From Escherichia coli (GTDB taxonomy: Bacteria > Pseudomonadota > Gammaproteobacteria > Enterobacterales > Enterobacteriaceae): a stretch of 64,000 nt of DNA. The translations under genes and the position numbers were made by a program. Where the stretch lies: the NCBI GenBank assembly GCA_902500055.1, contig GCA_902500055.1_4131.1; one strand, written 5' to 3'. Positions 565-50,620 of the stretch are shown one piece after another. Below the pieces are notes generated by a model that was not told the DNA's origin, did no database searches, and saw nothing but the letters and a program-made list of their open reading frames with translations. Positions within the stretch are counted from its first letter, which is position 1; the number at the start of each line of letters is the position of its first letter.

Positions 565-578
565 TAGGAGGATAGATT

Positions 579-1268: not shown

Positions 1269-1285
1269 TATTTTTCAAAAGAAAA

Positions 1286-1309: not shown

Positions 1310-1314
1310 ATATG

Positions 1315-2332: not shown

Positions 2333-2333
2333 A

Positions 2334-2540
2334 TTAGTAACCTCCAGTATTTGCAAACCATTTTCCACGGAAATAAAGATTAGCACCCTTATCACCTGGA
2401 GTGAACACTTCCAACTTCATAGTTTTTTCACCATTACATTTAGGACAATCATGAGGTTCATCACGATTTGCAATTTTAACAATTTTTTCCATGCTATGTT
2501 TGCATTCTTCTTTTTCACAACGATATGTATATAATGGCAT
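2334..2540 (-). CDS. FmdB-family zinc-ribbon protein
   Basis: 68 aa, MPLYTYRCEKEEC...CPKC: N-terminal Y.Y.C..C plus distal CPxC, the FmdB-type putative regulatory zinc-ribbon pattern. Confidence 0.5.
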   Translation of the reverse strand: MPLYTYRCEKEECKHSMEKIVKIANRDEPHDCPKCNGEKTMKLEVFTPGDKGANLYFRGKWFANTGGY

Positions 2541-2604
2541 TTTGTATTCCTTTACTTTTTAAATCAAACTAATTTGGGGAACATAGTGTTCCCCGTTATT
2601 TATA

Positions 2605-27773: not shown

Positions 27774-28087
27774 TGTCCAACTATAGTCAATACTCACCTT
27801 ACGCTAAGGTGAAACAAACATGGTATCTTGGGTATAATTTACCACGTGATATTGTTCCGGCTGATACTGATGATTTTTATGAGATCCCATTGAAATATGA
27901 ATATCAACCTTGGCGTTTAGCATACGAAATGTATGGTAATGAACGCTTATATTATATTTTCGCATTGTTAAATCCAGACATACTAGGAGAAGATCCTATA
28001 TATAATTTTAAAAGTGGAGTAACAATTAGAATACCAGCAAATCAAAGAGTACAAAATTATCTTAATGGTACTCGAAACATAGGCTAA
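27773..28087 (+). CDS. Small baseplate protein, gp53-like / LysM-like
   Basis: LAYEMYGNERLYYIFALLNPDI resembles T4 gp53 (LANAIYGNPQLYWVLLMCNDNY, recalled) and a LysM-like tail protein X motif; TAATG overlap with the upstream gene. Confidence 0.4.
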   Translation: MSNYSQYSPYAKVKQTWYLGYNLPRDIVPADTDDFYEIPLKYEYQPWRLAYEMYGNERLYYIFALLNPDILGEDPIYNFKSGVTIRIPANQRVQNYLNGTRNIG

Positions 28088-33025: not shown

Positions 33026-33037
33026 ATATTTTAGCAC

Positions 33038-33045
33038 TATAAATA
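33038..33045 (+). promoter_or_regulatory. T4-type late promoter box TATAAATA upstream of the endolysin gene
   Basis: Exact TATAAATA, 17 nt upstream of the ATG at 33062. Confidence 0.5.
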
Positions 33046-33061
33046 AAACGAGGATATCTTT

Positions 33062-33550
33062 ATGAGTAAATGGGAAATTAAAAATACAGATGAGCAATTT
33101 TTTAAGGAAATTAAAGAATTTGAAGGAACTATTGCTTATCAGAAAAAACTTGGTTATTTTAAAAATGATAAGTTTTGGGTATATAAAGACAGTTTAGGTC
33201 TTGATACTATTGGTTATGGTCATCTAGTTCTTCCTGGTGAAAATTTCAAGAATGGTTTGACCGAAGCTCAAGCTGACCAACTTCTTCTCAAAGATGCTCA
33301 AACTGCGTACAATGATGCAAAATCAATTTATGAACAATTCGGTATGACTGCACCAGTACAGGTACAACGTGTATTATGGTTAATGGTATTCCAAATGGGA
33401 AAAACCAAAGTTTTGAAATTTAAAAAAGCAATGACCGCATTAGGTAAAGCTGATTACAAAACTGCTGGTAAAGAATTGCGTGATAGTACATGGTATAAAC
33501 AAACCACTTCACGAGCGGAAAAGATGGCACGTATCGTTGAATCCGTATAA
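33062..33550 (+). CDS. Endolysin, T4-lysozyme-like (GH24 muramidase)
   Basis: 162 aa; catalytic-region motifs EFEGT..YQ, YKDSLGLDTIGYGH, MVFQMG, WYKQTTSRAE match T4 lysozyme (E11, D20, T26 equivalents present). Confidence 0.9.
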   Translation: MSKWEIKNTDEQFFKEIKEFEGTIAYQKKLGYFKNDKFWVYKDSLGLDTIGYGHLVLPGENFKNGLTEAQADQLLLKDAQTAYNDAKSIYEQFGMTAPVQVQRVLWLMVFQMGKTKVLKFKKAMTALGKADYKTAGKELRDSTWYKQTTSRAEKMARIVESV

Positions 33551-33565
33551 TAAAGGAAATAGACA

Positions 33566-33961
33566 ATGGCAGTTGTTTTTAAAGGGTTTTCTACCCCTGT
33601 AGTTGGTAGAACTGAAACATTGTATGATAGTGAATTGGTTCGCCAAGATTTAATGAATCATTTCAATACAAAAAAAGGTGAACGAGCATTTGATGCTGAC
33701 TATGGGTTTATTGCATGGGATTTGCTATTTGAATTGGAAGGTTATAATACTATCAACCTTTTAGAAGCAGATGCCCGTAGAATAATTAGCTTAGACCCAC
33801 GTTTAAATCTTAAAAAATTACAAATTTCAAGAATAGAATATGGATACCAAATGAATATTGTATTACAGTACGTAGTATTGGACACATTAGAAGAACTTAC
33901 TATAGTATTTGATGCAAGAAGTAATAATCGAATGGCAACATATTCAGTTTCGTCTTTATAA
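33566..33961 (+). CDS. gp25: Baseplate wedge protein gp25-like (GPW family)
   Basis: 131 aa (T4 gp25 is 132 aa). FNTKKGERAFDADYGF matches gp25 TRKGSRPFDPEFG; downstream ISLDPRL...VLQYVVLD fits the gp25 C-terminal pattern. Confidence 0.7.
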   Translation: MAVVFKGFSTPVVGRTETLYDSELVRQDLMNHFNTKKGERAFDADYGFIAWDLLFELEGYNTINLLEADARRIISLDPRLNLKKLQISRIEYGYQMNIVLQYVVLDTLEELTIVFDARSNNRMATYSVSSL

Positions 33962-33968
33962 TTATAAA

Positions 33969-33996
33969 AGCACTCTTCGGAGTGCTTTTCTTTTTG
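33969..33996 (+). terminator. Rho-independent terminator after gp25
   Basis: AGCACTC-TTCG-GAGTGCT hairpin followed by TTTTCTTTTT. Confidence 0.65.
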
Positions 33997-34030
33997 AATA
34001 AATATTTCTATATAAATCATGGAGTGATGT

Positions 34031-34738
34031 ATGAAAAGATATTATGGTTTCATTTATCAATGGGAAGATTGTTCCAATGGTATAAAATATATAGGTTCTC
34101 ATTATGGAACAACTGATGACAAGTACGTGTCTTCTAATATTATAGTTAATCGCATTTATAAGAGTAGACCCCTTGATTTATCAAGAGTCGTTTTGGAATA
34201 TATTATTGTTAATGATAAGAATTTTTTATTGGAAAGAGAACAAAAATACTTAGATTTAATACTTCCGTCTGAATTGTATACTAGTACCAATAGAAAAAAC
34301 AAAACCGTAAAATATTACAACATGAAAAAGAATGCATGTGGTGGTAACGGTGGTATTGGAAGTAATGGTATATTGAAAAATAAAATAAAATATTTTAATA
34401 AAAATACTTTAGAACAGAAATTCTTTCATTATAATGATGACATATCGGATGATTGGATTAAAGGTGTACCCCCATCTAAGGTTAGTTGTTCAGGTAGTAT
34501 TTGGTATCTAAATATACATACTGGAGAAAATAAAAGATTTAGACATAACCCTGGTATAGATTGGATTGAAGGAAAACGCAATACTTCAACAACACCAAAA
34601 AAGGTAAGCACACCATATGGGATTTTCGAAAGTGCATCTGAATGTAGTAGACAAACTGGAATAAAACAAGGAACTGTATCATTTAGGTGTCGTTCCAAAT
34701 CAACTAATATGACAAATTGGTTTTATATAGAGGAATAA
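34031..34738 (+). CDS. GIY-YIG homing endonuclease (Seg/I-TevI-like) inserted between gp25 and gp6-like genes
   Basis: N-terminal YYGFIYQWEDCSNGIKYIGSH (GIY...YIG motif); C-terminal SECSRQTGIKQGTVSFRCRSKS resembles a NUMOD/helix-turn-helix DNA-binding tail. Confidence 0.8.
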   Translation: MKRYYGFIYQWEDCSNGIKYIGSHYGTTDDKYVSSNIIVNRIYKSRPLDLSRVVLEYIIVNDKNFLLEREQKYLDLILPSELYTSTNRKNKTVKYYNMKKNACGGNGGIGSNGILKNKIKYFNKNTLEQKFFHYNDDISDDWIKGVPPSKVSCSGSIWYLNIHTGENKRFRHNPGIDWIEGKRNTSTTPKKVSTPYGIFESASECSRQTGIKQGTVSFRCRSKSTNMTNWFYIEE

Positions 34739-34741
34739 ATT

Positions 34742-37700
34742 ATGTCACAACAAAAAAGACAGTCTAATTTATATAGTGGTGAGGATTGGACCCAGGTATA
34801 TGAAAGTTTTTATAAGATCAATCTCACTGCATTTGATTTTGACACTATTCGTCAAAGTATGATTGATTATCTACGTGCAACTTACCCAGATTCATTTAAC
34901 GACTGGATCGAAAACGATCAGTTTATTTTTATTTTAGATACGATTTCTATGCTAGGACAGAACTTGGCATTTCGTATGGATTTGAACACGCGTGAAAACT
35001 TTTTAGATACTGCAACTCGTCGTGCGTCAGTACTAAAACTAGCTAAAATGATTTCTTACTCACCACGCCGCTCATATCCAGGTCGTGCAGTTGCTAAATT
35101 AACCGAAATTAAAACAAACCAAGATGTTCGTAATAGTTTTAATGAATCATTAAAAGATAAAATCATTCGTTGGAATGACCCGATGGATGCTAACTGGTAT
35201 GAAAACTTTATTCTAGTAATGAACAGTTCATTTGTCAGTACTAACCAATTTGGTAATCCAGTCAAGCGTATTGATGTTAATGGTGTCTCCCGCCAACTAT
35301 ATCGAATGAACACCATCCCAATGACAGCACCCAGTATTCCATTTGTTGCAACTGTCAATGGTGAATCTATGACATTTGAAGTAGTGAATCCTGATATTAC
35401 GTCTGTTGGTGTTGAAGAACGACATCCAGAACCACAAGAGCAAAAATATATTGTTTATCAAAATGATGGTAATGGATTTAGCTCACCAAATACTGGGTTT
35501 TTTGTATATTTCGTACAAGGTACATTGACATATCAAGATTATCAATATGCTATCCGTGAAGAGAACCGTATACAAGATATTAACGTTGATAATATCAACG
35601 AAACTGATGTATGGGTTCAAGAAATAAATGAAGATGGTATTGTTCGTACCAAATGGACAAAAGTTCCATCAATGGAAAGTATTGCATATAACACTGTTAA
35701 TCGTCAATTAAAAACAATTTTTGCTGTTACTACTCGTGATAAAGACCAAATAACAATTAAGTACCCAGACTCAAGAAGTGGTGTTGTTCCCCGTGGGACG
35801 TTCCGTGTATGGTATCGTGTTAGTAATGGTAAAACATATAACATTAAAACTTCTGAAATTCAAAATAAAAGCGTAAAATATACATATCGTACAAAAACAC
35901 AGTCAAGTTATGAATCTAGTACATTGGATATACGTTTTTCATTACAATATGAGTCCGACCGTGCACAAAGTGCAGAGACTATTGAGCAGATTAAAGCACG
36001 TGCACCACAAATGTACTATACACAAAACCGTTTTGTCAATGGTGAAGATTATAATATTGCACCACTTAGTTTAGGCAATACTGTACTTAAATCTAAAGCT
36101 ATTAATAGAATTTATAGTGGACAATCAAGATTTATTGATATTAATGATCCTACTGGTAAGTATCAAAATACCGATGTTTTTAGTGATGATGGTGCATTAT
36201 ATCAAGAAAACACACAATTTAATAGATCATTATTGCTACCAACTACAAAAACAAATGCTAGTATTGTTATTGACAATATTCAACCATTGATTGGTGAAAA
36301 TGCGGTAATACAACGTTACCAAGCGTTTCCATCAAATACAATTGGTATTGAAATACAACAAGCATGGACTCCGGTATACAATTCAAATTATACAACTAAC
36401 ACATATGGTAGAATTTTGGGTTCATCTGGTACAGTTTATGGTTCATATCAGGTTGGTACTCTAATTAAATTTTCTAATTCTGGAACTACTATATGGGCTA
36501 GTGTAGTTAGTGTATTGGATAATGGATTTTATGTACTGAGTACATCGGTTCCAAGTGGAATGCAAGCCATAGAGTACATTTTACCATATAGAACTAGATT
36601 TAACTCGGTTGAAGTTCAAGCAATTTCTGCTATGCTAGATAAAAAAACTGATTTTGTTATTGTACATGACAAAGAAACGACATCATGGGTTCCTATTGAA
36701 GTAAGTACCAATGATGATACTATTGTATATAATGGAAATGAAGTTTTAATTATAATTAATGTAAAATATACAGCAGAAACTTGGGAATTTGATGCTAACG
36801 GTATTGAATATATTTTTGTGGGTGGAGAAAAAGTAAGATTTTACTTTGTATCATCTAAAAAAATTACTGATATTAGTACTGGTACAGTTCAAAGTGATAA
36901 GATTGAAATTTTATCATCTAACACTACTAGTAGTAGTAATTCAGGATTGACAAGTAATATAGATTTTCAAATTTATGACACAATTCAACAAGAGAATGGC
37001 TATCTAGATGGTTCTCGTGTTATTGTTACATCTAGGAAAGTAGATAGTAATGGTATACCATTGGAACCAAACCAATTTAAAGAAATTGTTCCTACTTGGA
37101 CTGGAACCGATGCATTAAAATATGGTGGTATTTTGGTATTTCAGGAAAATAGTGATTTCACTATATCAGTACTGTCGTTACCAAATGATACCTTCACACT
37201 TCTTGATTCATCGTGGTCTTATACAATGGAACAAGCCTTGGCAGAGCCGAATGCATATAAAAGAACTGAATTTGTTAGAAATAACGCAATTCGTTCAACC
37301 ACATTGAGTGGATTATATAGTAAAGGTTCTGGATTTTTAGTTGGTTTTAACTATGATGGTAAATATTATTTTATTGAACAAACAGTTGGTAATAACAATG
37401 ATCGTTTAGGACAGCTAATTAGTAATTTAACTTATTCCGATGATACTGGCACTGTTAGTCCTGAATTGGCTTTTTATCGTGCAATTAATAACATGGGAAC
37501 TAATGCTGACGAGAATCAGAAGCTAGATTATTATGGATACAAAGATGTTACTTCACAGTACACTGTTAAAACTAATGCACGTACTAGTATAGACTTCCAT
37601 TGGAAACACTATGCACCTGACGACAATCGCATTGATCCTAGTAGAACAAACTTAATTGATATGTATGTATTAACCAATTCATATAAAACTGAAGTTGACG

Positions 37701-38203
37701 TTTGGTTGAAAAATAATGCTGTTGGTAGTATTCCTAAACCACCAACATCGGTTGAATTAAAAGATATGTTCAAAGATGTTGAACAAAAAATAGTCATTAG
37801 TGATAGTATCATTTGGCATAGTGCTGAGTACTTACCTTTATTTGGAAACAGTGCTGCTGAAGATTACAAAGCTGATTTTAAAGTAGTGAAATTACCAAAC
37901 AGCACAATGAGTGATGATGAAATTCGTCAAAATGTCATAGCATTAACTAATGAATACTTCAATGTTGATAACTGGGATTTCGGTGAAAGTTTCTATTATA
38001 CTGATTTGTGTACTTACATACACTCACAGTTAGGTAGACATATTAGTACTATTGTTATAGTTGCACAAAATCCAAATTCAAAATTTGGTTCTCTATTTGA
38101 AATCCCTTCACGTTCAGACCAAATATTCTTGAGTACTGCATCTGTTGAAAATGTTCAAATTGTTAACTCACTAGCTAAAAGTAATATTAATATCGGTTCT
38201 TAA
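34742..38203 (+). CDS. Baseplate wedge protein gp6-like (baseplate J family), enlarged to 1153 aa
   Basis: N-terminal region (DFDTIRQSMIDYL...FIFILDTISMLGQNLAFRMDLNTRENFLDTATRRASVLKLAKMISYSP) parallels the T4 gp6 N-terminus as recalled; follows gp25 as in T4. Confidence 0.55.
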   Translation: MSQQKRQSNLYSGEDWTQVYESFYKINLTAFDFDTIRQSMIDYLRATYPDSFNDWIENDQFIFILDTISMLGQNLAFRMDLNTRENFLDTATRRASVLKLAKMISYSPRRSYPGRAVAKLTEIKTNQDVRNSFNESLKDKIIRWNDPMDANWYENFILVMNSSFVSTNQFGNPVKRIDVNGVSRQLYRMNTIPMTAPSIPFVATVNGESMTFEVVNPDITSVGVEERHPEPQEQKYIVYQNDGNGFSSPNTGFFVYFVQGTLTYQDYQYAIREENRIQDINVDNINETDVWVQEINEDGIVRTKWTKVPSMESIAYNTVNRQLKTIFAVTTRDKDQITIKYPDSRSGVVPRGTFRVWYRVSNGKTYNIKTSEIQNKSVKYTYRTKTQSSYESSTLDIRFSLQYESDRAQSAETIEQIKARAPQMYYTQNRFVNGEDYNIAPLSLGNTVLKSKAINRIYSGQSRFIDINDPTGKYQNTDVFSDDGALYQENTQFNRSLLLPTTKTNASIVIDNIQPLIGENAVIQRYQAFPSNTIGIEIQQAWTPVYNSNYTTNTYGRILGSSGTVYGSYQVGTLIKFSNSGTTIWASVVSVLDNGFYVLSTSVPSGMQAIEYILPYRTRFNSVEVQAISAMLDKKTDFVIVHDKETTSWVPIEVSTNDDTIVYNGNEVLIIINVKYTAETWEFDANGIEYIFVGGEKVRFYFVSSKKITDISTGTVQSDKIEILSSNTTSSSNSGLTSNIDFQIYDTIQQENGYLDGSRVIVTSRKVDSNGIPLEPNQFKEIVPTWTGTDALKYGGILVFQENSDFTISVLSLPNDTFTLLDSSWSYTMEQALAEPNAYKRTEFVRNNAIRSTTLSGLYSKGSGFLVGFNYDGKYYFIEQTVGNNNDRLGQLISNLTYSDDTGTVSPELAFYRAINNMGTNADENQKLDYYGYKDVTSQYTVKTNARTSIDFHWKHYAPDDNRIDPSRTNLIDMYVLTNSYKTEVDVWLKNNAVGSIPKPPTSVELKDMFKDVEQKIVISDSIIWHSAEYLPLFGNSAAEDYKADFKVVKLPNSTMSDDEIRQNVIALTNEYFNVDNWDFGESFYYTDLCTYIHSQLGRHISTIVIVAQNPNSKFGSLFEIPSRSDQIFLSTASVENVQIVNSLAKSNINIGS

Positions 38204-38211
38204 TATAACGG

Positions 38212-38235
38212 GCGTTCTTCGGAACGCCTTTTTTA
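38212..38235 (+). terminator. Hairpin terminator/attenuator between gp6-like and the giant ORF
   Basis: GGCGTTC-TTCG-GAACGCC stem followed by TTTTTT. Confidence 0.6.
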
Positions 38236-38282
38236 TATCATAAATAAATCAAATGAATGAACGAATTATATGGAGTCCAAAA

Positions 38283-41200
38283 ATGACTAATAATTTTAAG
38301 TTTCAACCTACACAGATGGCTGAAGCAGTACAGAAGAAGCTTTTTATTAAAAGATTGCCTGAGTGGATGCAAGGCTTAGAAGATATTCAAAAAGTCAGTG
38401 ATGATGTTATTCAACAATGGTTTAATCCGGCTGAAAACGAATTAGTTGACGGCTATATTGGTGATATGGGTTCTCCTGCCGCTGCTGGTAATATCTTCTT
38501 ACATGAAAGTACTGTAGCACGTCAACTTTATCAGTTGTCCACTGCTTACGTCTCAAAAAATGATGATTCGACAATTCGTTCAATTCAATTTTATGATGAT
38601 CTAGTTGGATACATGAATCATTATGGAGCACTAACCGATAATGAAAGCCGTTTGTTCAACGGTAAGTTTTATGCATGGACTCCAGCTATTAACCCAAATA
38701 AAATGAACAATTTTAGCTCATATCTTTGGGATACTAAAAACTCTTATAATATTACTTCACCTGATTACATTGTAATGGAACGTGGAGCACTTAATGGTAA
38801 TACATGGTCACTACAAAACTTTTGGTATACTTTAGGTGAAACATTAGAAGATGGCTCAATATTAACTGAAGAATTAATGCAAGATTCACGTTTTATTCGT
38901 GCACGTGCACCAATTATTGAATATAATAAAAATATTGAGCTAATTAACTACGGTACAAAATTCCGTGGAACTGTTGATCTGTTCTCTGATATTATTAAAC
39001 CTGAAGATATCGTTCAAAAAGATATTAATAGTGGTATACGTATTGATGGTATTATTCCGCAAGATGGAATGCGTATTCTATTCACCAGTATTGGTAACAA
39101 TGGTGAAAACAATAGAATTTATAATGTATATGTGAAAAAAATGCAAGATGGTACTCGTGTTTATGGTTTAGCACTAGATCCAGAAGAAGAAACCGAATCA
39201 CGCCCAAGTGGTGAACCACAAGATGGTGATGTTGTTCTAATCACTAAAGGTAATGAGTATGGTAATAGTTCTATGTACTGGAATGGATCTTTGTGGGTTC
39301 GTGCACAATCAAAAACTAGTGTTAACGTATTCCCTAAATTCCAACTTTATGATCGTAATGGTATCAAACTTGACAACAGTACTACATATCCATCAAGTAA
39401 CTTTAAAGGTTCAGAGTTGTTTGGTTTTAAAATAAATTACAACTATGCAACTGATAGTGTATATGGATATAACATTGAACTTGGTGATTATAATTATTAC
39501 ATTTATGAAAACTTTTTACAATCCCAACGTTATACCTATGACCATCTTGGAAAAGAAGTTGAAATTGATGGTTTATACTATTATAACATTATTGATGAAA
39601 ATAATGAAATGAATCTTCAAACCGATTGGGTTCGTTCAGAAGAGTACTCTAAACAATTTGTAAAACAAACTCCACAAGTCAAACGTACTGATATGTATCG
39701 TGTATTCAGTACTGTTTATGATATGGAAGTTTTTAAAGAACCAGTTGATGGTATGTATGCATATGTTATTGAAGTTGATAGAACCTATCAGTACTATAAA
39801 GCAGACCGCGAAACTTATCTAGACTGGCATCCAATCACTGGTGATGGTGTTCAGATTGTAAAATATGACCATACATTCGAATTGGCACAAAAAGTTTTAG
39901 ATAATGATTCTGATATTATTGAAGTTGTGGTTGATGGTGTTGATGTGTCCAAATATACCAAAAATGTTTCAAAAGGTCAAGTACAAAGCATCACTCTAGA
40001 TAGTACTGTAGATTTGGATGAAGATTCTGTTATTCAAATCAGAACTTATAGCAGTACTGTAACTCCTAATAAAGAATTAGGTGCATATGAAGTTCCAATC
40101 AACCTACAAAATAACCCATATAATTCTAATATTATATACATTAACCAAGGTGACTACACTTTACATTTTCAGGATATTATTCAAAAGAACATTACACGTG
40201 GTTCTTCTGATGATTTCAATGACTATGAAGAACGTTTGGCTAAAGGATTGGTTAATAATGGCGTAGGTACTAAAATTATCCAAAATGAAGCATCTATGCT
40301 TCCATTGATGGCACATACTGCAAATGAAGATATTGATTTGTTTGAAGCAACTATGTTTATGCAATCTGAATATTTTAGATTCATTAATAAATTTAATACA
40401 CAAATGCTTCGTATGTATGATGAAAATCCATCAGACTTTTTACAAAATAGTGCTGCAAACATTGTTGATGCAATTTTAACTACTATTAATATGGGACGTG
40501 ATAGTTCATTCCCATTCTATTATGATAATGTTGGAAGTACTTCTGGATTCATTCGTGCATTTATACCACCAACACCACAGTTCTTAGGTATTCTTCAAGC
40601 ATATGTACCAGAAAAAGCGACATTCCTCACTGCTGGTAGTAAACCAAGCTGTTATAACATCAGTCATACTGGTATTATTTCCAAAGCATACCGTGTTATC
40701 AATGGTGTTGATAAAATGGATGATGTTGTATATGAATTAGAAAATAGAATTTTTAATAGTATTGATAATAAATTCAAAGATGTTGATTACGTACCAGTAT
40801 TGAATAGTGATGACCTTTTCCCTACACCATATTTCACTAAAACTGAATATAGTGCTGAAGAGAAACAAACATTATTACTACGTGGATACATTAACTTCAC
40901 CGCAACTAATGGTATCAGTAATAGTACACATGATTATGATCCTAACAATTGGAGAACTTGGAACTATACTGGCACTTATTATGTAGTTAATGGTCAAAGT
41001 ACTGAAATTCCTGCTCGTGGTTCATGGCGTGCAATTTATACTGACCAATATGGTACATATCGCCCTGCAACACATCCGTGGGAAATGTTTGGCTTTTCAC
41101 AGCGTCCAACTTGGTGGAACCAAGAATATGAACCAACTGCTGTTCAAGTTGGTGAGCGTGATAGTGATGTGGTATATGTATATGAAGCACTTGTTATGAA

Positions 41201-44200
41201 TGAACAAGGAGATTTAGTTCCTAGTGGTCTATGGGATATCGACGGCACTATCGGAGATAGTAGTACTGGTACTATTTTGTCTGGTGATCGCCGTGGACAG
41301 TATGACAAATATAAAAGATTTGGTGTACAGCCATTTAAAATCACAAAAACTGGTAATAAAACATCTTCCGGTATTGATATTTGTGTTGTTGAATATATTG
41401 CACCTGAAATTTTAGGTTTAGTGTCTGGTTCTTTAAATCATAGAGCAGAACCTTGGGCATATGGTGACATGGGTGACATGGAATTTACATACATGAACAC
41501 TACATTGTTTGCATATGACCAAATGCTACTTTTGTATAAAGCTAAACCTGCACAATTTGCTAACTATTTTTGGGATACCCGAAATGACAATTTAAAAGAA
41601 GTATTCACTGATGGTTCACAATTCCTTTATGGTGATACACGTAAGCGTATTAATTTTGATAAAAACACTGTAGTTCATGGTGAAAATAACACAAGAACAA
41701 TTGGTTATCAAATGTTTGTTAGTGATTATTTGATGTATCAAAATAAAAACATTACAACCAAATATGGGGATGTAGTTCGTTCTTCTTATATAAATGTTGG
41801 TCATAAAATTGGTGGTTTTACTAAAGCAGATCAGCTAACATTCAATGCTAAATCATTTGGTCTTATTTCACAAGAAAACCAAACTATTGGTCTTGTTCGC
41901 TCGAATAATATTCGTGATGAACAAATGAGTGCTATCAAAATTACTTGGAATGGTAGTGCATATCAGATTGATGGATATGATTTAGTTGGTGCTAAATTCA
42001 AATATAAACTGCCAGTGAAAAATGGTAGAAAAGTAACTCTTAAATTAGAAAACCGCAATGTTGTTCATTATAACGAATGGAAATCTGAAGCTTCCATTGA
42101 ATATGGTAAAGTTTTTAATAGTTACCAAGAAGTTTATACTTTTATTTGTGGTTATGGTGAATATCTTAAAGAACATGGCTGGATTTTTGAAGATGTAAAT
42201 GATAGTGGTGCTCAACAAGATTGGAACACTATTGCTAAAGATTTTGTGATCTGGAGTCAGAATTCTCTGGTAACGGGTGAATTTATTTCTTGTACACCAA
42301 GTGCAGCAAATGCTAAATTTGGTGCAGACTTTGGTTCAGTTCAATCTATTACACAAAATAACGGTGGTGTGTGGTCATTACTTGATGATAACAACCAAGG
42401 TATACGTCAATATGAAATTGAAACTTCTCGTATTGGTAATATCTTTACTGTTAGAACTTTAGAATCCAATAAACGTATAGCATTAATTCGTTTAAGTTTG
42501 TGTTCATATGAACATGCTGTTATTTTTGATGATAAGACTATTTTTGGTGATTATATCTATCAGCCAACTTATGGTTCTATTCAAGAATTAATTAAAATGT
42601 ATGGCTACATTACTGGTTCATGGACTGGTCGTCTACAAGCTCCTGGATTTATTATCTTGGAAGCTGGAACACTACCATCATTTGAAAAATTAGTGTCGGA
42701 TTTCCAACATTATTATGATAGTGAAACTCCAGTAAGTGATGTACAATTACAAGAGTTGTCAAACCATTTGATTGGTTATCAATCTCGTGATTATCTACAG
42801 CGTATGATTAGTAGTGATGTTAGTCGTGTTGATTTCTATAAAGGATTCATTCATGATAAAGGTACTAACCAAGTTTTAGAACGTGTACTTCGTGTTTCTA
42901 AATCATATGACACAGATGAATATAAAGCATTACAAGAATGGGCATTTAAAATTGGTACATATGGTAATATTGATGGTAAGAAAAACCTTCAATTTAAACT
43001 AATCAATGACCAATTTAAACAACAACCACAAATGGTATCTTTTGATGTAAACGCTACTTCAAATGGAAATGGAAACAATATTGTATACTTCGGCGAACAA
43101 GGTAAAGATCCTCGTTGGATTACACGTCCAAATGGTAAGTTCTCATTCCCGATGCGTAGTGGAAGAAGTGAAAACATTCAACTTCCAGATATTGGTCCAG
43201 TAACATTGGATGAAGTATCTTACACTACAAAAGATTTCAGTACTGCATATAATGACCGTATAACTTACACTAATGGTAAAGGTGAAAACCCTGAATCTGT
43301 TTGGATGTTTAAAGACGGAAATGGTTTATGGAATATTTTTGAATTAGTTGATACTAATGTGCAAATGGTTTCTATAACACCTATTGAAAATACCGATGTG
43401 TATGCTGAACAATTTTGTAAAGTAACTTTAACTGATAATGTGCCACTTGAAGATGGTGATTATTATTATTTTGTTGATGAAACTAACTTTATGCCAGATA
43501 CTTTAACAGTAGAAAGTCAATATTATACTGCTGGTTCTGATCCTAAAGTTATGGTAGTTCCATTTGACACTTCTATTGATATTGAATTTACTGATCCAGA
43601 TACACGTCCACGTTTGTATCGTTATGTATCACGTTTTGCCAGTGCAGAAGAGCGTCAAGCATATATTGACAAAAAGTATAGTTACAAAGCACCACAAAGT
43701 ACTTTTTTTGACCGTCCAACTACATATGATGAACGTACTAACATTACTGCATTATATCTAAATGTGTATGACCCTATCAATGGGGTTATTCCTGGTGCAG
43801 CAATGCAAAACGTAACTTATACGTCACCAATAGACCCAGCACAATATAATAGCAATGGTGAATTAATTCAGGCTTGGGGTGCTGATAAAGTTGGTCAAGT
43901 ATGGTGGAACACTAGCACTGCATTTTATTTGGATTATACTCGTGCAATTTATGACGCAGACGGTAATGTTGACATTGATGCAACCAATGAATACAAACGT
44001 TACAACTGGGGTCGTTTATTACCACATAGTACAATTGATGTGTTAGAGTGGGTTTGTTCACCAGTTGAGCCATATAACTGGGACAAATACTGTAAAGATG
44101 TTGCTAAGAAAAACAAAAATAATACTATGTATCTACCAAGTGGAACTGCACTTGAAGATAATTATAGTACATTTTTGGAATATGATAGTTCAACTGATAG

Positions 44201-47200
44201 TTATGTGACAAAATACTATTTCTGGGTACGTGATACAATTTATGTACCACCACTACATACCAGAACAAAATCATGTACTGACATTGCTCGTATTATTAAA
44301 GATCCAACACAGCTAAACATTCCTTGGTTCGCTCCAATCAATGAAAACTCGTTTATTCTTAGTAATATGCAATTTAAAGTGAATGATGATACCAGTATTT
44401 TAACTGTTTCTTATTACATGGATAGTACTGAAGTTGTTAAACATGACCAGTATCAACTATGTAAAGAAGGTGACAGCTATAACTTTAACCCACTAATTTG
44501 GGATTCAATGTGGAACTCACTAATTGGTCAAGAAACAACTGAATCAGGTTCTGTGATTAATTTATTATATCCAGATGTTGATAACGGTTTAGGTTCAAAC
44601 AAAACTTGGTTCCAAAATGTTATAGAAGCTCGTAGAAACTTTGTAGAAAGTGCTAATAATTATTATAGGTCACAAAACATAACCACTAATAGTGTTGTTA
44701 TGAAAGATGTGTTTAATGTTAAAACCACTGAAGTTAACCCTAATGAAGTTTCTTTCCGTGTCTTGTCTTACAATAATGAATTAGTTATTGCAGTTGAAAG
44801 TGATAAATTTAAAGAAAATGACGCTGTTATTTTAAGTACTAGTGGATATCTACCAAATCCATTAACTTCTAGTGCTGTTTATTTTATTCACTTCGACGAA
44901 AATGGATATATTCAGTTAATGAATAGTCCAGCAAACGCGGGTAGTGTTGTTACTATAACGTTAGAGAACAAAGGTGAGGGACAACATAAAATGATTAAGC
45001 AATCTGATTATGTTGAATCACTAGGAACTTCATTAGACATGACTCAGTACTGGTCATATGCTGATTGGTATGATGTTGGGTATGATAGTAACACGACTTA
45101 TACACAAGAGTCAAGCTTAGAAGATGCTAATACTAAAAACTACCAAGTTGGCGATATTATCAGAGTTACCGATAGTGAAAACATTTGGACATTGTATATT
45201 AAATCACAATCACGCGATTCAATTTATTGGAAAGCGATTGGTCGTGAAAACAGTACAGTTGAACTCAATGATATGCTTTACGCAGATTATAGTGTTCATA
45301 ATGATAATGGTTCACTAAGCAATCGTGAAATCAACGTTCGTAAAGCACTAGCTTTACTCAAAAATTCTTTCGATTTACATCAAAGCGAAATTGTTTTTGA
45401 TATGGTCAAATATGTACATGTTGAACAAAGTGTTGTGGATTGGGTATTTAAAACATCATATATCTATATTGTTGGTTTGGAACAATCATTAGTTCAAAAC
45501 TATTCAAACGATAATTTGATTAATCAAATTGTTGAATATTTTGAAGAAGTTAAACCTTATAGAACTAAAATTCGTTCACAAATAGAGCAAAAGACATCTG
45601 ATGATGATTTAATAAAAGGTCTATGTAATGATTTAGATCCTAATGGATATATTTTCGTTGATGGTTCTTGGATCAAAACTGAAAAAGATATTTGGGATTA
45701 TGAGTACGCTCAATTTAATGAAATTACCCAAAAATGGGAACAGGTAGGTTCACTACCAAGTGATTTCGTTACACCAAATAGAAGATTCCAAGAAATTGAT
45801 ATTATTATGCATTATGATAATATTCAGTGTAAACCAAATGAAGATTTGGCAAGCATAAATGAATTAGTAAGTGTTAATAACAAATATCAATCCAATGAAA
45901 AGGATGCTGTTAGTAACTATGAATTACAACGTTATATATATTCTTTCCCAGAATATAGTGAAGAAACTTTCGATCTTCTTATTGCTTATCAAATGCAAAT
46001 CTACTATCCAGAATTGGATGTAACACTAGGAACAGCATATGGCGTTAACCAGTGGTATAAAGACCATGCGGAAGATTTAGAAGCAACTGATGAATTCACT
46101 GCTACATTGGAACGTGTTTATAAAGAATCAACGCATAACGATATGTTTACTGACCTTAGACAATATGTTCAGTATAACACATTGGCAAACCGTTTGAAAC
46201 TTTATAAAGATATAAGTGATGAGAAAATTCACGATGAAGTTGGATGTGGATTTAGTGGACTTACTTATAATGACAATCCTAGTACTAGACTTCCATTAGG
46301 CTTTTCTTCTAGTAATGATTATAACTATGGATATTTTGAAATAAGCAGTGAATTGTATCAAAAATACATTTCATTAATTAAAGATAAAAATCCTGACGCA
46401 TCAGACTATGAAGTAAAAGTTAAACTTGAAGTTGAGTATGGTGTATATGTTTATCGTTATGATGAAGTAGGTGGTGATACCCGTTTCTATACTGATGCTA
46501 TTCACGTATTAGCAGGTATGAGAGGGTTATTCGACAAAGACGCTACTGATAAGTACGAAAAAGCTGAAGAGATTCTTAGTAAGACCCCAATTGATATCTA
46601 TGCAATTACAATGATTCCACGAAAATATGTTTACTTAAATGTTAACGGTGTATATCAAAGTATACCTGATGAACAAAGTATTGATGATTTCATGGAAGAT
46701 TATTTTATCACAAATGGTGAAATGGTTGAACTAGCTGAAATAAATCTTGATGATTTACCACTAGATCAAAATAATCCAATGTATTCTGATTATCAATATA
46801 TACTTGATAGTATTACTGAAGCTAAGTACTTCAATGATATGAATGCATTTGATAACCTAGCATTAGAATCTCAAACTTCTTCAATAAAATGGGAAGTTAA
46901 AGATGATGAGGTTGATCCTTATATTGTGGATATATCTGACATAAACCCTTCTGGGCGTGATGTTGGTCAAATTAGATTTACAGTTGATGGATATGGGTTT
47001 GACAATGTATCTCTTGTACAATTACGTGATAACAGCAGATATCAAACTGAAGGTATGGCAATTATCAATCCATATAAACATACAGAAGCAATTGTTAGTA
47101 TTCCTTCATATGCTAAGATTGAAAATGATATTAATAAAACAACATCGAAGTTTGATGAAAAATATTTCTATCGTGTGAGATCTATTAATAGCTTAACTGA

Positions 47201-48254
47201 AGCAGAAATAGTTGACAATGACCTATCTGATGGTGATAAGGTGATGATTTTCACTCCTGATGGTGAAGATTTTGTGAGATATCAAAATCACACATGGGAA
47301 ACAATCTTGCGTGTATCTAACATCAAAAACAATACAACTCCGATCCTATTCACTGTAAGAAATACAGGTAAGGAAACGATTGAATTGATTGATGAGAGTA
47401 CTGGTGCAGTTCTCCGTTATGATAACATCACTCTTGCACAACAAAATGAGCCAGTACAGCCTCTAGCATTGAACATTGTTCGTGTTAGAACATTTGCTGA
47501 CCCTGAATTTGTCAAGAATGGTATTAAATTGTATGAACAAAATAGAAATTACACCATTGATGTAATTAATTATGATGTTTTCTACGATACTACTTTAAAT
47601 GGTGGTAAGTACAATGACGGAATAACACCAGATGACGTTGACGTTTGGATAATCTCTAATGAAATATTTGATGTTGATGGAATTACTATCGATAACGGTT
47701 ATAACTTACCAATTACGGGTGCGGGAGTTCTTAGTGAATTGGCAAGAACTAAAATGACTGATAGTTTAGAAATCAACGTTATCGAATATGATTCAAGTGT
47801 TATTCAACCGTTTAGAAATAATGAAGGGATATGGGTTTATGGATTCCCAATGGTTGACGGTATGTATATCGGTGTTGTTGGTGGTACTGTTACTAACATC
47901 ACAACCATTAGTGAAGAAAATACAACCTATGTTTCTCAACCTAAATCAATAAGTCCTTATAGTATTAGAAATAATGTTTTATCCGGTTCAGCCGCAAACA
48001 TGAATGATATTATATCGATTGGATATGAAAAAGTTGAAGTTAGAAATGCAAATAATTTACTCCGTGGTGTAATGTATAGTGCAGAACATGATTTTAAACT
48101 TAATACTACATATTCTTTCAATGGAATTAATTTAGGTAATTATGATATGTTAAAACGTTACACACAAAATAGTTACACTATAGATCTTTCAGTATACACT
48201 GATAGTCTACAAGTTAGTGGTAATGATATTAAAAATATATTATTAGTTAAGTAA
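38283..48254 (+). CDS. Giant virion protein (about 3,323 aa), probable baseplate/fibre-network protein
   Basis: Uninterrupted 10-kb ORF; start set at the Met with a GGAG RBS (38283). No catalytic motif recognised; Asn/Tyr/Asp/Thr-rich. Synteny (after gp25 and gp6) suggests a gp7-like component. Confidence 0.75.
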   Translation: MTNNFKFQPTQMAEAVQKKLFIKRLPEWMQGLEDIQKVSDDVIQQWFNPAENELVDGYIGDMGSPAAAGNIFLHESTVARQLYQLSTAYVSKNDDSTIRSIQFYDDLVGYMNHYGALTDNESRLFNGKFYAWTPAINPNKMNNFSSYLWDTKNSYNITSPDYIVMERGALNGNTWSLQNFWYTLGETLEDGSILTEELMQDSRFIRARAPIIEYNKNIELINYGTKFRGTVDLFSDIIKPEDIVQKDINSGIRIDGIIPQDGMRILFTSIGNNGENNRIYNVYVKKMQDGTRVYGLALDPEEETESRPSGEPQDGDVVLITKGNEYGNSSMYWNGSLWVRAQSKTSVNVFPKFQLYDRNGIKLDNSTTYPSSNFKGSELFGFKINYNYATDSVYGYNIELGDYNYYIYENFLQSQRYTYDHLGKEVEIDGLYYYNIIDENNEMNLQTDWVRSEEYSKQFVKQTPQVKRTDMYRVFSTVYDMEVFKEPVDGMYAYVIEVDRTYQYYKADRETYLDWHPITGDGVQIVKYDHTFELAQKVLDNDSDIIEVVVDGVDVSKYTKNVSKGQVQSITLDSTVDLDEDSVIQIRTYSSTVTPNKELGAYEVPINLQNNPYNSNIIYINQGDYTLHFQDIIQKNITRGSSDDFNDYEERLAKGLVNNGVGTKIIQNEASMLPLMAHTANEDIDLFEATMFMQSEYFRFINKFNTQMLRMYDENPSDFLQNSAANIVDAILTTINMGRDSSFPFYYDNVGSTSGFIRAFIPPTPQFLGILQAYVPEKATFLTAGSKPSCYNISHTGIISKAYRVINGVDKMDDVVYELENRIFNSIDNKFKDVDYVPVLNSDDLFPTPYFTKTEYSAEEKQTLLLRGYINFTATNGISNSTHDYDPNNWRTWNYTGTYYVVNGQSTEIPARGSWRAIYTDQYGTYRPATHPWEMFGFSQRPTWWNQEYEPTAVQVGERDSDVVYVYEALVMNEQGDLVPSGLWDIDGTIGDSSTGTILSGDRRGQYDKYKRFGVQPFKITKTGNKTSSGIDICVVEYIAPEILGLVSGSLNHRAEPWAYGDMGDMEFTYMNTTLFAYDQMLLLYKAKPAQFANYFWDTRNDNLKEVFTDGSQFLYGDTRKRINFDKNTVVHGENNTRTIGYQMFVSDYLMYQNKNITTKYGDVVRSSYINVGHKIGGFTKADQLTFNAKSFGLISQENQTIGLVRSNNIRDEQMSAIKITWNGSAYQIDGYDLVGAKFKYKLPVKNGRKVTLKLENRNVVHYNEWKSEASIEYGKVFNSYQEVYTFICGYGEYLKEHGWIFEDVNDSGAQQDWNTIAKDFVIWSQNSLVTGEFISCTPSAANAKFGADFGSVQSITQNNGGVWSLLDDNNQGIRQYEIETSRIGNIFTVRTLESNKRIALIRLSLCSYEHAVIFDDKTIFGDYIYQPTYGSIQELIKMYGYITGSWTGRLQAPGFIILEAGTLPSFEKLVSDFQHYYDSETPVSDVQLQELSNHLIGYQSRDYLQRMISSDVSRVDFYKGFIHDKGTNQVLERVLRVSKSYDTDEYKALQEWAFKIGTYGNIDGKKNLQFKLINDQFKQQPQMVSFDVNATSNGNGNNIVYFGEQGKDPRWITRPNGKFSFPMRSGRSENIQLPDIGPVTLDEVSYTTKDFSTAYNDRITYTNGKGENPESVWMFKDGNGLWNIFELVDTNVQMVSITPIENTDVYAEQFCKVTLTDNVPLEDGDYYYFVDETNFMPDTLTVESQYYTAGSDPKVMVVPFDTSIDIEFTDPDTRPRLYRYVSRFASAEERQAYIDKKYSYKAPQSTFFDRPTTYDERTNITALYLNVYDPINGVIPGAAMQNVTYTSPIDPAQYNSNGELIQAWGADKVGQVWWNTSTAFYLDYTRAIYDADGNVDIDATNEYKRYNWGRLLPHSTIDVLEWVCSPVEPYNWDKYCKDVAKKNKNNTMYLPSGTALEDNYSTFLEYDSSTDSYVTKYYFWVRDTIYVPPLHTRTKSCTDIARIIKDPTQLNIPWFAPINENSFILSNMQFKVNDDTSILTVSYYMDSTEVVKHDQYQLCKEGDSYNFNPLIWDSMWNSLIGQETTESGSVINLLYPDVDNGLGSNKTWFQNVIEARRNFVESANNYYRSQNITTNSVVMKDVFNVKTTEVNPNEVSFRVLSYNNELVIAVESDKFKENDAVILSTSGYLPNPLTSSAVYFIHFDENGYIQLMNSPANAGSVVTITLENKGEGQHKMIKQSDYVESLGTSLDMTQYWSYADWYDVGYDSNTTYTQESSLEDANTKNYQVGDIIRVTDSENIWTLYIKSQSRDSIYWKAIGRENSTVELNDMLYADYSVHNDNGSLSNREINVRKALALLKNSFDLHQSEIVFDMVKYVHVEQSVVDWVFKTSYIYIVGLEQSLVQNYSNDNLINQIVEYFEEVKPYRTKIRSQIEQKTSDDDLIKGLCNDLDPNGYIFVDGSWIKTEKDIWDYEYAQFNEITQKWEQVGSLPSDFVTPNRRFQEIDIIMHYDNIQCKPNEDLASINELVSVNNKYQSNEKDAVSNYELQRYIYSFPEYSEETFDLLIAYQMQIYYPELDVTLGTAYGVNQWYKDHAEDLEATDEFTATLERVYKESTHNDMFTDLRQYVQYNTLANRLKLYKDISDEKIHDEVGCGFSGLTYNDNPSTRLPLGFSSSNDYNYGYFEISSELYQKYISLIKDKNPDASDYEVKVKLEVEYGVYVYRYDEVGGDTRFYTDAIHVLAGMRGLFDKDATDKYEKAEEILSKTPIDIYAITMIPRKYVYLNVNGVYQSIPDEQSIDDFMEDYFITNGEMVELAEINLDDLPLDQNNPMYSDYQYILDSITEAKYFNDMNAFDNLALESQTSSIKWEVKDDEVDPYIVDISDINPSGRDVGQIRFTVDGYGFDNVSLVQLRDNSRYQTEGMAIINPYKHTEAIVSIPSYAKIENDINKTTSKFDEKYFYRVRSINSLTEAEIVDNDLSDGDKVMIFTPDGEDFVRYQNHTWETILRVSNIKNNTTPILFTVRNTGKETIELIDESTGAVLRYDNITLAQQNEPVQPLALNIVRVRTFADPEFVKNGIKLYEQNRNYTIDVINYDVFYDTTLNGGKYNDGITPDDVDVWIISNEIFDVDGITIDNGYNLPITGAGVLSELARTKMTDSLEINVIEYDSSVIQPFRNNEGIWVYGFPMVDGMYIGVVGGTVTNITTISEENTTYVSQPKSISPYSIRNNVLSGSAANMNDIISIGYEKVEVRNANNLLRGVMYSAEHDFKLNTTYSFNGINLGNYDMLKRYTQNSYTIDLSVYTDSLQVSGNDIKNILLVK

Positions 48255-48291
48255 TAAAAAAAGGAGAGCATTATGCTCTCCTTTTCTTTTT
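48255..48291. terminator. Bidirectional rho-independent terminator shared by the giant ORF (+) and ClpA (-)
   Basis: A-run, GGAGAGCA-tta-TGCTCTCC hairpin, T-run; same stem sequence as the terminator at 1286-1309. Confidence 0.7.
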
Positions 48292-50580: not shown

Positions 50581-50620
50581 GTATTCTCCTATGTGATTCA
50601 CGTCACTCTAATTAATAAAC

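What the first reader, a model, noticed from the sequence alone, without database searches (positions are those of the whole stretch)
38283..48254. Giant (about 3,300-codon) ORF embedded in the baseplate gene block
A single uninterrupted 10-kb reading frame follows the gp25-like and gp6-like baseplate genes and ends at a shared hairpin terminator. That is roughly three times the size of T4 gp7, the protein expected at this position. I found no catalytic motif and no obvious long internal repeats; composition is Asn/Tyr/Asp/Thr-rich, typical of beta-rich fibrous or adhesin proteins. It could be a hyper-expanded wedge protein, a fused wedge-fibre network protein, or an ejected protein. Proteins this large in a baseplate context are rarely characterised.
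Basis: partly seen in the sequence, partly recalled or inferred. Interest (0 to 1): 0.75.

Follow-up and report, generated by a model that had tools for sequence, protein, structure and literature searches.

The report
Giant baseplate-linked virion protein of jumbo phages
This 10-kb gene really does encode one 382-kDa protein that is built into the virus particle of PBECO4/121Q-type jumbo coliphages; it always sits right after the two conserved baseplate-wedge genes, so it is most likely a hugely enlarged baseplate protein, but it resembles no solved protein and its exact role is still unproven.

Summary
One uninterrupted reading frame runs 38253-48254. Its likely start is ATG 38283, giving 3,323 aa, 381.8 kDa and pI 4.6. 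It lies between two intrinsic terminators.

The window is a PBECO4/121Q/phAPEC6-type (Rak2-like) jumbo coliphage. The gene is intact in at least 35 independent genomes, and published virion mass spectrometry detected the orthologues (phAPEC6 gp245, CBB_236). It is therefore a real, already annotated "virion structural protein" with no assigned function.

This work adds four points:
- The family is very large: 1,198 clusters at 50% identity and at least 592 IMG/VR loci. Complete members are 2.8-6.3 thousand residues long.
- The gene order gp25-like, then a ~1,100-aa gp6-like gene, then the giant gene holds in 77 of 83 loci.
- A ~2,450-aa core is conserved. It has insertion hot spots that carry carbohydrate-binding domains in relatives. 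The last ~860 aa evolve faster.

The best reading is that this is the third wedge subunit (the gp7 position) fused to the baseplate periphery. That rests on gene order and elimination, not on homology. Interest is moderate.

The parts
38210..38229 (+). Intrinsic terminator that closes the gp6-like gene and separates it from the giant gene
   Evidence: An 8-bp GC-rich stem followed by a T-run.
38239..38246 (+). CATAAATA, a one-base variant of the T4-type late promoter TATAAATA, 37 nt upstream of the start codon (motif end 38246 to ATG 38283; function inferred)
   Evidence: Motif scan. Exact TATAAATA motifs precede other structural genes at 26999 and 33038. Relatives encode a gp55-like late sigma factor. 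Function was not tested.
38283..48254 (+). Giant CDS: 3,323 aa plus stop, 381.8 kDa, virion structural protein (PHROG 10938). GGAG lies at 38272-38275. An in-frame upstream ATG at 38253 is the less likely start.
   Evidence: Virion mass spectrometry of orthologues.
38283..38729 (+). aa 1-149: the slowest-evolving N-terminal module, ending at invariant Y147/W149. Residues 1-55 are conserved but not confidently modelled. A major insertion site follows residue 149.
   Evidence: 95% identity to P0003, against 65-68% in the C-terminal bins (aa 2461-3323). Inserts of up to 530 aa occur in 25 of 51 homologues. pLDDT below 50 for residues 1-55.
38730..40562 (+). aa 150-760: beta-rich domains followed by a helical domain (aa 620-735). 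One domain weakly resembles fibre/tailspike N-terminal anchoring domains.
40722..43010 (+). aa 814-1576: the most deeply conserved core, and the only part still alignable to XacN1, Xoo-sp13 and RAS14. It carries the motifs RPxTHPWEMxGF, WxFGDxG, WNGRLxAPGF, PNFEK, HLIGYQxRxYL, KGT and EEWAFKxGxYG.
42666..42965 (+). aa 1462-1561: a highly conserved helical stretch that AlphaFold cannot place (pLDDT 26-52). It is the candidate partner-binding interface. Relatives carry a CBM_5_12 insert immediately before it.
   Evidence: Conservation is highest here. Low pLDDT with predicted helices. CBM_5_12 is present in 33 of 70 homologues. The hhalign link to the gp7 helical region is not significant and not reproducible.
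43509..43640 (+). aa 1743-1786: the main insertion hot spot of the family
   Evidence: Summed inserts of hundreds to about 1,700 aa in relatives.
43680..44732 (+). aa 1800-2150: conserved, confidently modelled block of alpha/beta and beta-barrel domains (VGxVWWDTS, YEWVxSPVxP, YYFWVKN)
45030..45632 (+). aa 2250-2450: the last conserved block (DWY, VDWVFKTSYI, EVKPYRTKIR). Two metagenomic relatives encode it on a separate ORF.
45663..48251 (+). aa 2461-3323: fast-evolving C-terminal third, specific to the Rak2-like clade and found in no other protein
   Evidence: 65% against 87% identity in the nearest relative. 48% against 70% to RaK2. One place per record, and only in orthologues. Not modelled.
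48259..48285 (.). Palindromic intrinsic terminator flanked by A- and T-runs, shared with the convergent ClpB-like gene (48292-50601, minus strand)
33566..38203 (+). Partner genes upstream: gp25-like (33566-33961), a homing endonuclease insert (34031-34738) and the 1,153-aa gp6-like wedge gene (34742-38203)
   Evidence: The gp25, gp6-like, giant order holds in 77 of 83 loci.

Best explanation
The gene encodes a 382-kDa structural protein of the contractile-tail baseplate. It occupies the position that gp7 (T4), gpI (P2) or TssG (T6SS) holds in every contractile injection system, directly after the gp25-like and gp6-like wedge genes. It most likely serves as the third wedge subunit, at six copies per virion, and also forms most of the baseplate periphery in a single chain.

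Shown:
- It is one intact gene with its own terminators.
- It is in the virion.
- It belongs to a very large family of uniformly giant proteins.
- It is tied to gp25 and the gp6-like gene by gene order.
- It has a ~2,450-aa conserved scaffold of many small beta-rich and alpha/beta domains.
- Relatives carry carbohydrate-binding inserts at fixed sites.
- Its last ~860 aa evolve fastest.

Inferred:
- The two strongly conserved but unmodellable segments (aa 1-55 and ~1465-1540) are the surfaces that lock onto the gp6-like dimer, gp25 and gp53, in the way the gp7 helix joins the core bundle.
- The outer domains and the variable C-terminus dock the branched tail fibres and/or touch the cell surface, and pass that signal to the wedge core to trigger sheath contraction.
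- On this view the protein replaces the separate T4 proteins gp7-gp11, none of which is detectable here.
For: Reality and virion location. Mass spectrometry on phAPEC6 gp245 and CBB_236.

Gene order: gp5-like, gp25, gp6-like, giant in the window; in distant homologues P0077 and P0072; in 77 of 83 fetched loci; and in XacN1.

No other gp7, gp8, gp9, gp10, gp11 or gp12 homologue is found in the window by phmmer or HMM, whereas gp53, gp5 and gp15 are found. The parts of CBB's table of T4 homologues seen list gp6, gp25 and gp53, and 'gp7' does not occur in that paper's text.

Family size and uniform length.

Conserved core against variable C-terminus.

Exposed binding modules in relatives (CBM_5_12, FG-GAP_2, Laminin_G_3, TIG).

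The models are globular multidomain and beta-rich, with weak hits only to phage tail, baseplate and fibre-anchor domains (TSP4-N, T7 gp17-N, gp6/J-like, P1 BplA, phiKZ baseplate proteins).

Conserved but low-pLDDT helices.

Peptide coverage is low relative to the gp6-like protein (7.6% against 24.2%; 7.7% against 12.5%), which fits a low copy number.
Against: No homology to gp7, TssG or gpI could be shown:
- Pfam found nothing.
- The family profile against all PDB sequences gave no hit at E <= 10.
- hhalign probabilities were 0.1-1.3% and the aligned positions were inconsistent.
- gp7 HMMs against 83 homologues gave no consistent hit.

56% of the chain (aa 761-1439 and 2161-3323), including much of the deepest core, was never modelled. 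Location in the baseplate, as opposed to elsewhere in the tail, has not been shown directly for any orthologue. The reported baseplate of CBB (about 36 x 15 nm) is not obviously larger than T4's. The copy number is unknown.
Confidence: 0.5

Rival explanations
1. It is a peripheral baseplate or fibre-network scaffold that is not the gp7 equivalent. It binds the outside of the wedge, for example the ~500-aa extension that the gp6-like protein has over T4 gp6, and carries the branched fibres. A different, still unrecognised small protein plays the TssG/gp7 role.
Against: Gene order places it exactly where gp7, gpI or TssG lies in other systems, and this holds over very deep divergence. The most conserved parts are buried-type motifs rather than exposed ones. 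No alternative gp7 candidate was detected in the window.
Confidence: 0.28
2. It is a fibre-like appendage: the proximal part of the tail fibres, or the unusual 'hairs' seen along the sheath of CBB and phAPEC6.
For: The composition is rich in N, Y, D and T. Phages of this group carry hair-like fibres whose proteins have not been identified (PMC7247149; PMC5259590). There are weak hits to tail-fibre N-terminal domains.
Against: There are no repeats and no trimeric fibre, beta-helix or chaperone domains. The models are compact multidomain with pTM 0.63-0.65. The family also occurs in RaK2, for which the parts of the 2013 paper read here mention no such hairs. The linkage is to wedge genes, whereas the fibre genes are clustered elsewhere (PMC10253068).
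Confidence: 0.08
3. It is an internal protein: a tape measure, or a protein ejected into the host with the DNA.
For: Its size is comparable to known giant ejected proteins such as the virion RNA polymerase of N4 (from general knowledge). It is acidic. The gene lies next to a ClpB-like chaperone gene.
Against: It is beta-rich and multidomain rather than an extended helix. There is no hydrophobic segment; the maximum Kyte-Doolittle 19-residue mean is 1.55. No polymerase or other enzyme signature was found. Relatives carry carbohydrate-binding and other surface-type binding modules, which make sense only on the outside of the particle. A tape-measure candidate is annotated elsewhere in the relative Atu_ph07 (PMC6102473).
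Confidence: 0.04
4. It is an artefact: several ordinary genes joined by sequencing or assembly errors.
For: A few GenBank records annotate 3-9 ORFs across this stretch.
Against: The frame is intact in at least 35 independent genomes and in hundreds of metagenomic contigs down to 25% identity. A protein of about 382 kDa was reported in virions.
Confidence: 0.01

Closest known systems
T4 gp7 (baseplate wedge protein; Pfam Gp7_helical, Gp7_5th, Gp7_6th)
   Same: The gene lies directly after the gp6 homologue in a T4-like baseplate block. Both are large multidomain virion proteins. In gp7 the conserved helical element also sits far from the N-terminus (aa 643-689), preceded by peripheral domains.
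   Different: It is 3.2 times longer. No sequence, profile or fold similarity is detectable. The T4 partners gp8-gp11 are not detectable in the window.
TssG / P2 gpI / Mu gp48 (the minimal third wedge subunit of contractile injection systems)
   Same: The gene order matches: gp25/W/TssE, then gp6/J/TssF, then this gene. Basis: PMC6300606.
   Different: Those proteins are about 170-370 aa (from general knowledge). There are no Pfam matches. The heterotrimer contact was not tested.
CBA120 TSP4 N-terminal region, T4 gp10-like domains and T7 gp17 N-terminal fibre-anchoring domains
   Different: The match covers only about 80-125 residues at 13-18% identity with high rmsd. This kind of fold is common.
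Peripheral baseplate proteins of jumbo phage phiKZ (PHIKZ027, PHIKZ087) and P1 BplA / gp6-type J-like proteins
   Different: The scores are near noise. There is no sequence relation, and those proteins are 480-960 aa.
phAPEC6 gp245, CBB_236, 121Q '582', and the RaK2, GAP32, PA5oct and Atu_ph07 orthologues (PHROG 10938)
   Same: It is the same protein family. Amino-acid identity over aa 1-2450 is 99% to phAPEC6, 121Q and PBECO4, 64% to CBB and 28-29% to PA5oct and Atu_ph07. The orthologues are annotated 'virion structural protein' and were detected by mass spectrometry.
   Different: None for the close orthologues. Their function is unassigned in those papers.

Membership tests
PHROG 10938 (virion structural protein of Rak2-like jumbo phages) | Full-length match to the family profile | tested here: met
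   E = 0, 5,789 bits, residues 1-3320 on profile positions 1-3324.
PHROG 10938 (virion structural protein of Rak2-like jumbo phages) | Presence in purified virions | tested here: met
   Published mass spectrometry of orthologues: phAPEC6 gp245, 381.88 kDa, 17 peptides (PMC7247149); CBB_236, 21 peptides (PMC5259590). This phage itself was not measured.
T4 gp7 baseplate wedge protein | Sequence or profile similarity to gp7 (Pfam Gp7_helical, Gp7_5th, Gp7_6th) | tested here: not met
   Pfam: none. hhalign probabilities 0.1-1.3%. gp7 HMMs against 83 homologues: no consistent hit.
T4 gp7 baseplate wedge protein | Fold similarity to solved gp7 | tested here: inconclusive
T4 gp7 baseplate wedge protein | Gene immediately downstream of the gp25 and gp6 homologues in the baseplate block | tested here: met
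   The window; 77 of 83 loci; P0077 and P0072; XacN1.
T4 gp7 baseplate wedge protein | Forms a (gp6)2-gp7 heterotrimer through a three-helix core bundle and trifurcation unit | not testable with these tools
   This needs a multimer prediction or cryo-EM. Only single-chain prediction was available.
TssG / P2 gpI / Mu gp48 | Match to the Tail_P2_I or T6SS_TssG profiles | tested here: not met
   No such Pfam match for the whole protein at E <= 1, nor for 70 homologous segments of aa 1440-1600 at E <= 10.
Tail fibre / tailspike proteins | Repetitive or trimeric fibrous architecture (beta-helix, collagen-like or coiled-coil repeats, intramolecular chaperone) | tested here: not met
   No internal repeat and no fibre Pfam domains. 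The models are globular multidomain. Only a weak resemblance to fibre-anchor domains was seen.
Tape measure / ejected internal proteins | Long alpha-helical or hydrophobic segments, or an enzymatic core | tested here: not met
   The models cover 44% of the chain and are predominantly beta. No window of 19 residues has a Kyte-Doolittle mean above 1.55. No enzyme family was found.

The most novel reading that the evidence does not exclude
The giant protein defines a previously undescribed architectural solution for contractile-tail baseplates. A single chain of 3-6 thousand residues, built from folds unrelated to gp7-gp11, both closes the wedge with the gp6-like dimer and forms the whole periphery. 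It has fixed 'slots' (after aa 149, 1461 and ~1750, plus the C-terminus) where lineages plug in receptor-binding or fibre-docking modules. This would be a hallmark of a huge superclade of jumbo phages: Rak2-like, PA5oct, Atu_ph07, SCTP-2, XacN1 and more than 1,000 environmental clusters.
Probability: 0.35. Interest if true: 0.7.

Novelty: new variant of a known kind. Interest (0 to 1): 0.55.

Why it matters
All contractile injection machines studied so far build their wedge from gp25/TssE, two copies of gp6/TssF and one gp7/TssG. In this large superclade of jumbo phages the third component cannot be recognised. In its place sits the largest gene of the genome, and its product makes up a sizeable share of the baseplate mass.

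Knowing how a 382-kDa chain is folded, counted and used to sense the host would show how baseplates scale up. It would also show how the branched, multi-depolymerase fibre systems of therapeutic Klebsiella and E. coli jumbo phages are anchored. The insertion slots and the variable C-terminus are natural targets for host-range engineering. Finally, the family is a ready-made marker gene for this phage group in metagenomes.

Tried and rejected
- Direct PDB sequence searches, with the single protein and with a 20-sequence profile, gave no hit at E <= 10.
- hhalign against T4 gp7 first placed giant aa 1466-1557 on gp7 aa 663-750 (shared NFEK and KGT strings), then placed only the KGT-motif segment (giant aa 1522-1542) on gp7 aa 734-754. 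I pursued this as a possible gp7 core in the middle of the protein. With a more diverse gp7 alignment the match moved elsewhere. HMM searches and a wider segment gave nothing. I therefore dropped it as evidence and keep it only as a lead.
- A Pfam scan of 70 homologous segments for Tail_P2_I, TssG or Gp7_helical found only CBM_5_12 inserts.
- A 1,040-aa AlphaFold job failed. Alignments of full-length homologues were too large. Only aa 1-760 and aa 1440-2160 were modelled.
- The exhaustive HMMER search listed only its best 150 hits, nearly all of them giant proteins of the family (lengths 420-6,362 aa, the shortest probably fragments). The weak tail, where ordinary-sized relatives might sit, could not be inspected.
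- Stop-codon recoding was considered for homologues that look split. It was rejected because all three stop codons occur in the gaps.
- Literature searches found no paper in the held library that assigns a function or solves a baseplate for this clade.
Full report
**1. The observation**

The window contains a single open reading frame at 38253-48254 on the + strand, and its translation has no internal stop. The first ATG is at 38253. From that codon the product is 3,323 aa, 381.76 kDa and pI 4.6.

The gene is bracketed by two intrinsic terminators. One lies at 38210-38229, after the preceding gene. The other is palindromic, at 48259-48285, and is shared with a convergent ClpB-like gene. A CATAAATA motif 37 nt upstream of the start (motif end 38246 to ATG 38283) resembles the T4-type late promoter TATAAATA, which occurs exactly in front of other structural genes in the window. 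This is an inference, not a test.

In DNA of 33% G+C about 7% of random codons are stops, so an open frame of 3,300 codons cannot be chance. The composition is D 8.1, N 8.0, Y 7.2, T 7.0%, and self-BLAST finds no internal repeat. No Pfam family matches. One item was overlooked: a homing-endonuclease ORF (34031-34738) lies between the gp25-like and gp6-like genes.

**2. Where the window comes from and what is already known**

The 10-kb stretch is 98% identical in nucleotides to PBECO4, 121Q, phAPEC6, SP27, slurp01 and other roughly 350-kb jumbo coliphages. It is 60-90% identical to relatives that infect Klebsiella (RaK2, K64-1), Salmonella, Erwinia, Cronobacter (GAP32), Yersinia, Serratia and Pectobacterium (CBB). 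In 35 records one place covers at least 80% of the query, so the frame is not an assembly artefact. A few records split it into 3-9 ORFs, most likely through sequencing errors.

The protein matches PHROG 10938, 'virion structural protein', over its whole length. Published virion proteomics found the orthologues. phAPEC6 gp245 (381.88 kDa) gave 17 unique peptides and 7.6% coverage, next to gp244 'baseplate wedge' at 24.2% (PMC7247149). CBB_236 gave 21 peptides and 7.7%, next to CBB_237 at 12.5% (PMC5259590). The CBB paper even uses 'the largest ORF' as the common origin when it compares Rak2-like genomes.

None of the papers I could search assigns a function, and I found no high-resolution baseplate structure for this clade.

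**3. Context**

Upstream lie, in order:
- a gp53-like gene (27758-28084, phmmer E 0.004);
- a 749-aa virion protein;
- a gp5-like hub protein with OB, DUF2345 and lysozyme domains (30362-33025);
- a second lysozyme;
- a gp25-like gene (33566-33961);
- the endonuclease insert;
- a 1,153-aa gp6-like wedge gene, whose residues 26-125 match the T4-type gp6 family (PHROG 219, E 1e-20).

Downstream, beyond the ClpB-like gene, lie a 501-aa virion protein and a gp15-like gene. T4 gp7, gp8, gp9, gp10, gp11 and gp12 find nothing in the window.

**4. The family**

A word-indexed search returned 196 relatives. All 120 that were listed are giant, at 2,779-5,638 aa, and come from contigs of up to 512 kb. 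IMG/VR holds at least 592 stretches that encode a relative. Complete ORFs there run from about 2,800 to 6,300 aa. An exhaustive HMMER search with a 239-position profile of aa 1462-1700 found 1,198 cluster representatives (50% identity clusters) at E <= 1e-3 and 582 at E <= 1e-30.

Among isolated phages the family covers the Rak2-like group, Vibrio phage 2.275.O, the Pseudomonas PA5oct group, Salicola SCTP-2 and Agrobacterium Atu_ph07. XacN1, Xoo-sp13 and RAS14 match only over aa 814-1576.

The gene order gp25-like, then a ~1,100-aa gp6-like gene, then the giant gene is kept in distant homologues. It holds in 77 of the 83 loci examined, and most of the exceptions are truncated contigs. It also holds in XacN1, where ORF323, ORF324 and a 3,313-aa ORF325 follow one another.

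**5. Anatomy**

Alignment of 51 homologues and BLAST maps show a conserved core spanning aa 1 to about 2450. The core carries about 60 invariant residues, mostly W, G, P and Y. It is interrupted by insertion hot spots after residues 149, 751, 1269, 1461 and, above all, 1743-1786.

Distant members carry CBM_5_12, FG-GAP_2, Laminin_G_3 and TIG domains. A CBM_5_12 domain sits at the 1461 site in 33 of 70 homologues. The last ~860 residues are specific to the Rak2-like clade, occur in no other protein and evolve faster: 65% against 87% identity in the nearest relative, and 48% against 70% to RaK2. The slowest-evolving parts are aa 1-150, 1461-1600 and 2251-2460.

In two metagenomic contigs the block equivalent to aa 2250-2450 lies on a different ORF from the block equivalent to aa 1-2150. 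This suggests the giant chain is a fusion of at least two units.

**6. Structure**

Two AlphaFold2 models were obtained with alignments of 23-25 sequences.
- aa 1-760: mean pLDDT 77.9, pTM 0.65. Mostly beta, with a helical domain at aa 620-735. Residues 1-55 are below pLDDT 50.
- aa 1440-2160: mean pLDDT 73.5, pTM 0.63. The conserved helical stretch at aa 1467-1540 is below pLDDT 50. The alpha/beta and beta-barrel domains from about 1570 to 2100 reach pLDDT 85-94.

T4 gp7 appears in neither list. The models cover 44% of the chain. aa 761-1439, which includes much of the deepest core, and aa 2161-3323 could not be modelled within the quota.

**7. Tests of gp7 homology**

T4 gp7 carries Pfam Gp7_helical at aa 643-689, followed by domains V and VI. 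Its wedge-core element therefore also sits far from the N-terminus.

Two hhalign runs placed part of giant aa 1466-1557 on the gp7 663-754 region: the first on gp7 663-750, the second only the KGT segment on 734-754. Both segments share NFEK and KGT strings, but the probabilities were 0.1-0.2%. With a more diverse gp7 alignment built from IMG/VR the top match moved elsewhere. HMMs of gp7 searched against 83 giant homologues gave no positionally consistent hit. A profile of aa 800-1600 against the gp7 profile gave 1.3% probability. A profile of the whole family against all PDB sequences found nothing.

Membership of the gp7 family is therefore not supported by any sequence or fold test that I could run. 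Only the positional criterion is met.

**8. Interpretation**

The secure conclusion is that this is a virion structural protein genetically coupled to the baseplate wedge genes across very deep divergence.

My preferred mechanism (confidence about 0.5) is that it is the functional counterpart of gp7/TssG, enlarged into a single-chain baseplate periphery. Its conserved but unmodellable segments would be the contacts to the gp6-like dimer. Its outer domains, insertion slots and fast-evolving C-terminus would hold fibres or contact the cell surface.

The main rival (about 0.28) is that it is a purely peripheral scaffold and that the true gp7 equivalent is still unrecognised. Three other readings are unlikely, for the reasons given under the rival explanations: a fibre or hair protein (about 0.08), an internal or ejected protein (about 0.04) and an artefact (about 0.01).

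**9. Novelty and score**

The ORF and its presence in virions are already on record. The following appear to be undescribed in the literature I could search:
- the size and uniformity of the family;
- the strict gene order;
- the conserved-core and variable-tail layout with insertion slots;
- the lack of any detectable link to gp7 or to solved structures.

It is best filed as a new variant of a known kind, namely a contractile-tail baseplate protein. Interest is 0.55. A structural virologist would want the structure, and the data make a clear, testable prediction. Nothing here overturns the accepted picture of how baseplates work.

Noticed in passing
window 34031-34738 (+): An I-TevI-like homing-endonuclease ORF (235 aa; Pfam I-TevI_DNA-bd, PHROG 314) is inserted between the gp25-like and gp6-like genes. 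The 98%-identical relative vB_EcoM_E9.1 has only about 100 bp at this position, so this is a presence/absence polymorphism of about 680 bp. T4 likewise has segC between genes 5 and 6.
   Followed up: partly
window 48292-50601 (-): A ClpB/ClpA-like double AAA+ protein (769 aa; Clp_N, AAA, AAA_2, ClpB_D2-small) is encoded convergently. It shares the palindromic terminator 48259-48285 with the giant gene. A phage-encoded unfoldase next to a 382-kDa structural gene might help its folding or assembly. This was not tested, and the neighbour is not conserved in the distant loci L003 and L004.
   Followed up: no
L024:2840-20721 and L018:6001-17409: In two IMG/VR contigs the block homologous to giant aa ~2250-2450 lies on a separate ORF from the block homologous to aa 1-2150. 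It is downstream in L024 and upstream in L018. All three stop codons occur between the blocks, so this is not recoding. It suggests the giant chain is a fusion of at least two interacting units.
   Followed up: partly
homologues of window aa ~1461 (nt ~42665); alignment A8: 33 of 70 environmental homologues carry a ~50-aa CBM_5_12 (chitin/carbohydrate-binding) domain inserted at exactly the same site, just before the conserved PNFEK motif. Other members carry FG-GAP_2, Laminin_G_3 and TIG domains in the 1743-1786 hot spot.
   Followed up: partly
L168 (Xanthomonas phage XacN1 203370-213311): XacN1 ORF325 (3,313 aa, 'hypothetical protein') follows a gp25-like ORF323 and a 971-aa wedge ORF324. 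The layout is the same as here, but only aa 814-1576 of the query can still be aligned (22% identity). The giant-gene architecture therefore extends beyond what sequence search readily shows.
   Followed up: partly
window 30362-33550 (+): The gp5-like hub protein (887 aa) has its lysozyme domain at the extreme C-terminus (aa 765-882), after the OB and DUF2345 domains. It is followed by a second, free-standing 162-aa phage lysozyme gene. A TATAAATA late-promoter motif lies at 33038, just before that second gene.
   Followed up: no
GenBank records OR699183, OR699181, OR699182, MH494197: In Salmonella phages SD-1_S14, SD-2_S15 and SD-6_S16 and in Escherichia phage CMSTMSU the orthologous stretch is annotated as 3-9 separate hypothetical proteins and aligns in several pieces. 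This probably reflects frameshift errors in those assemblies rather than biology.
   Followed up: no
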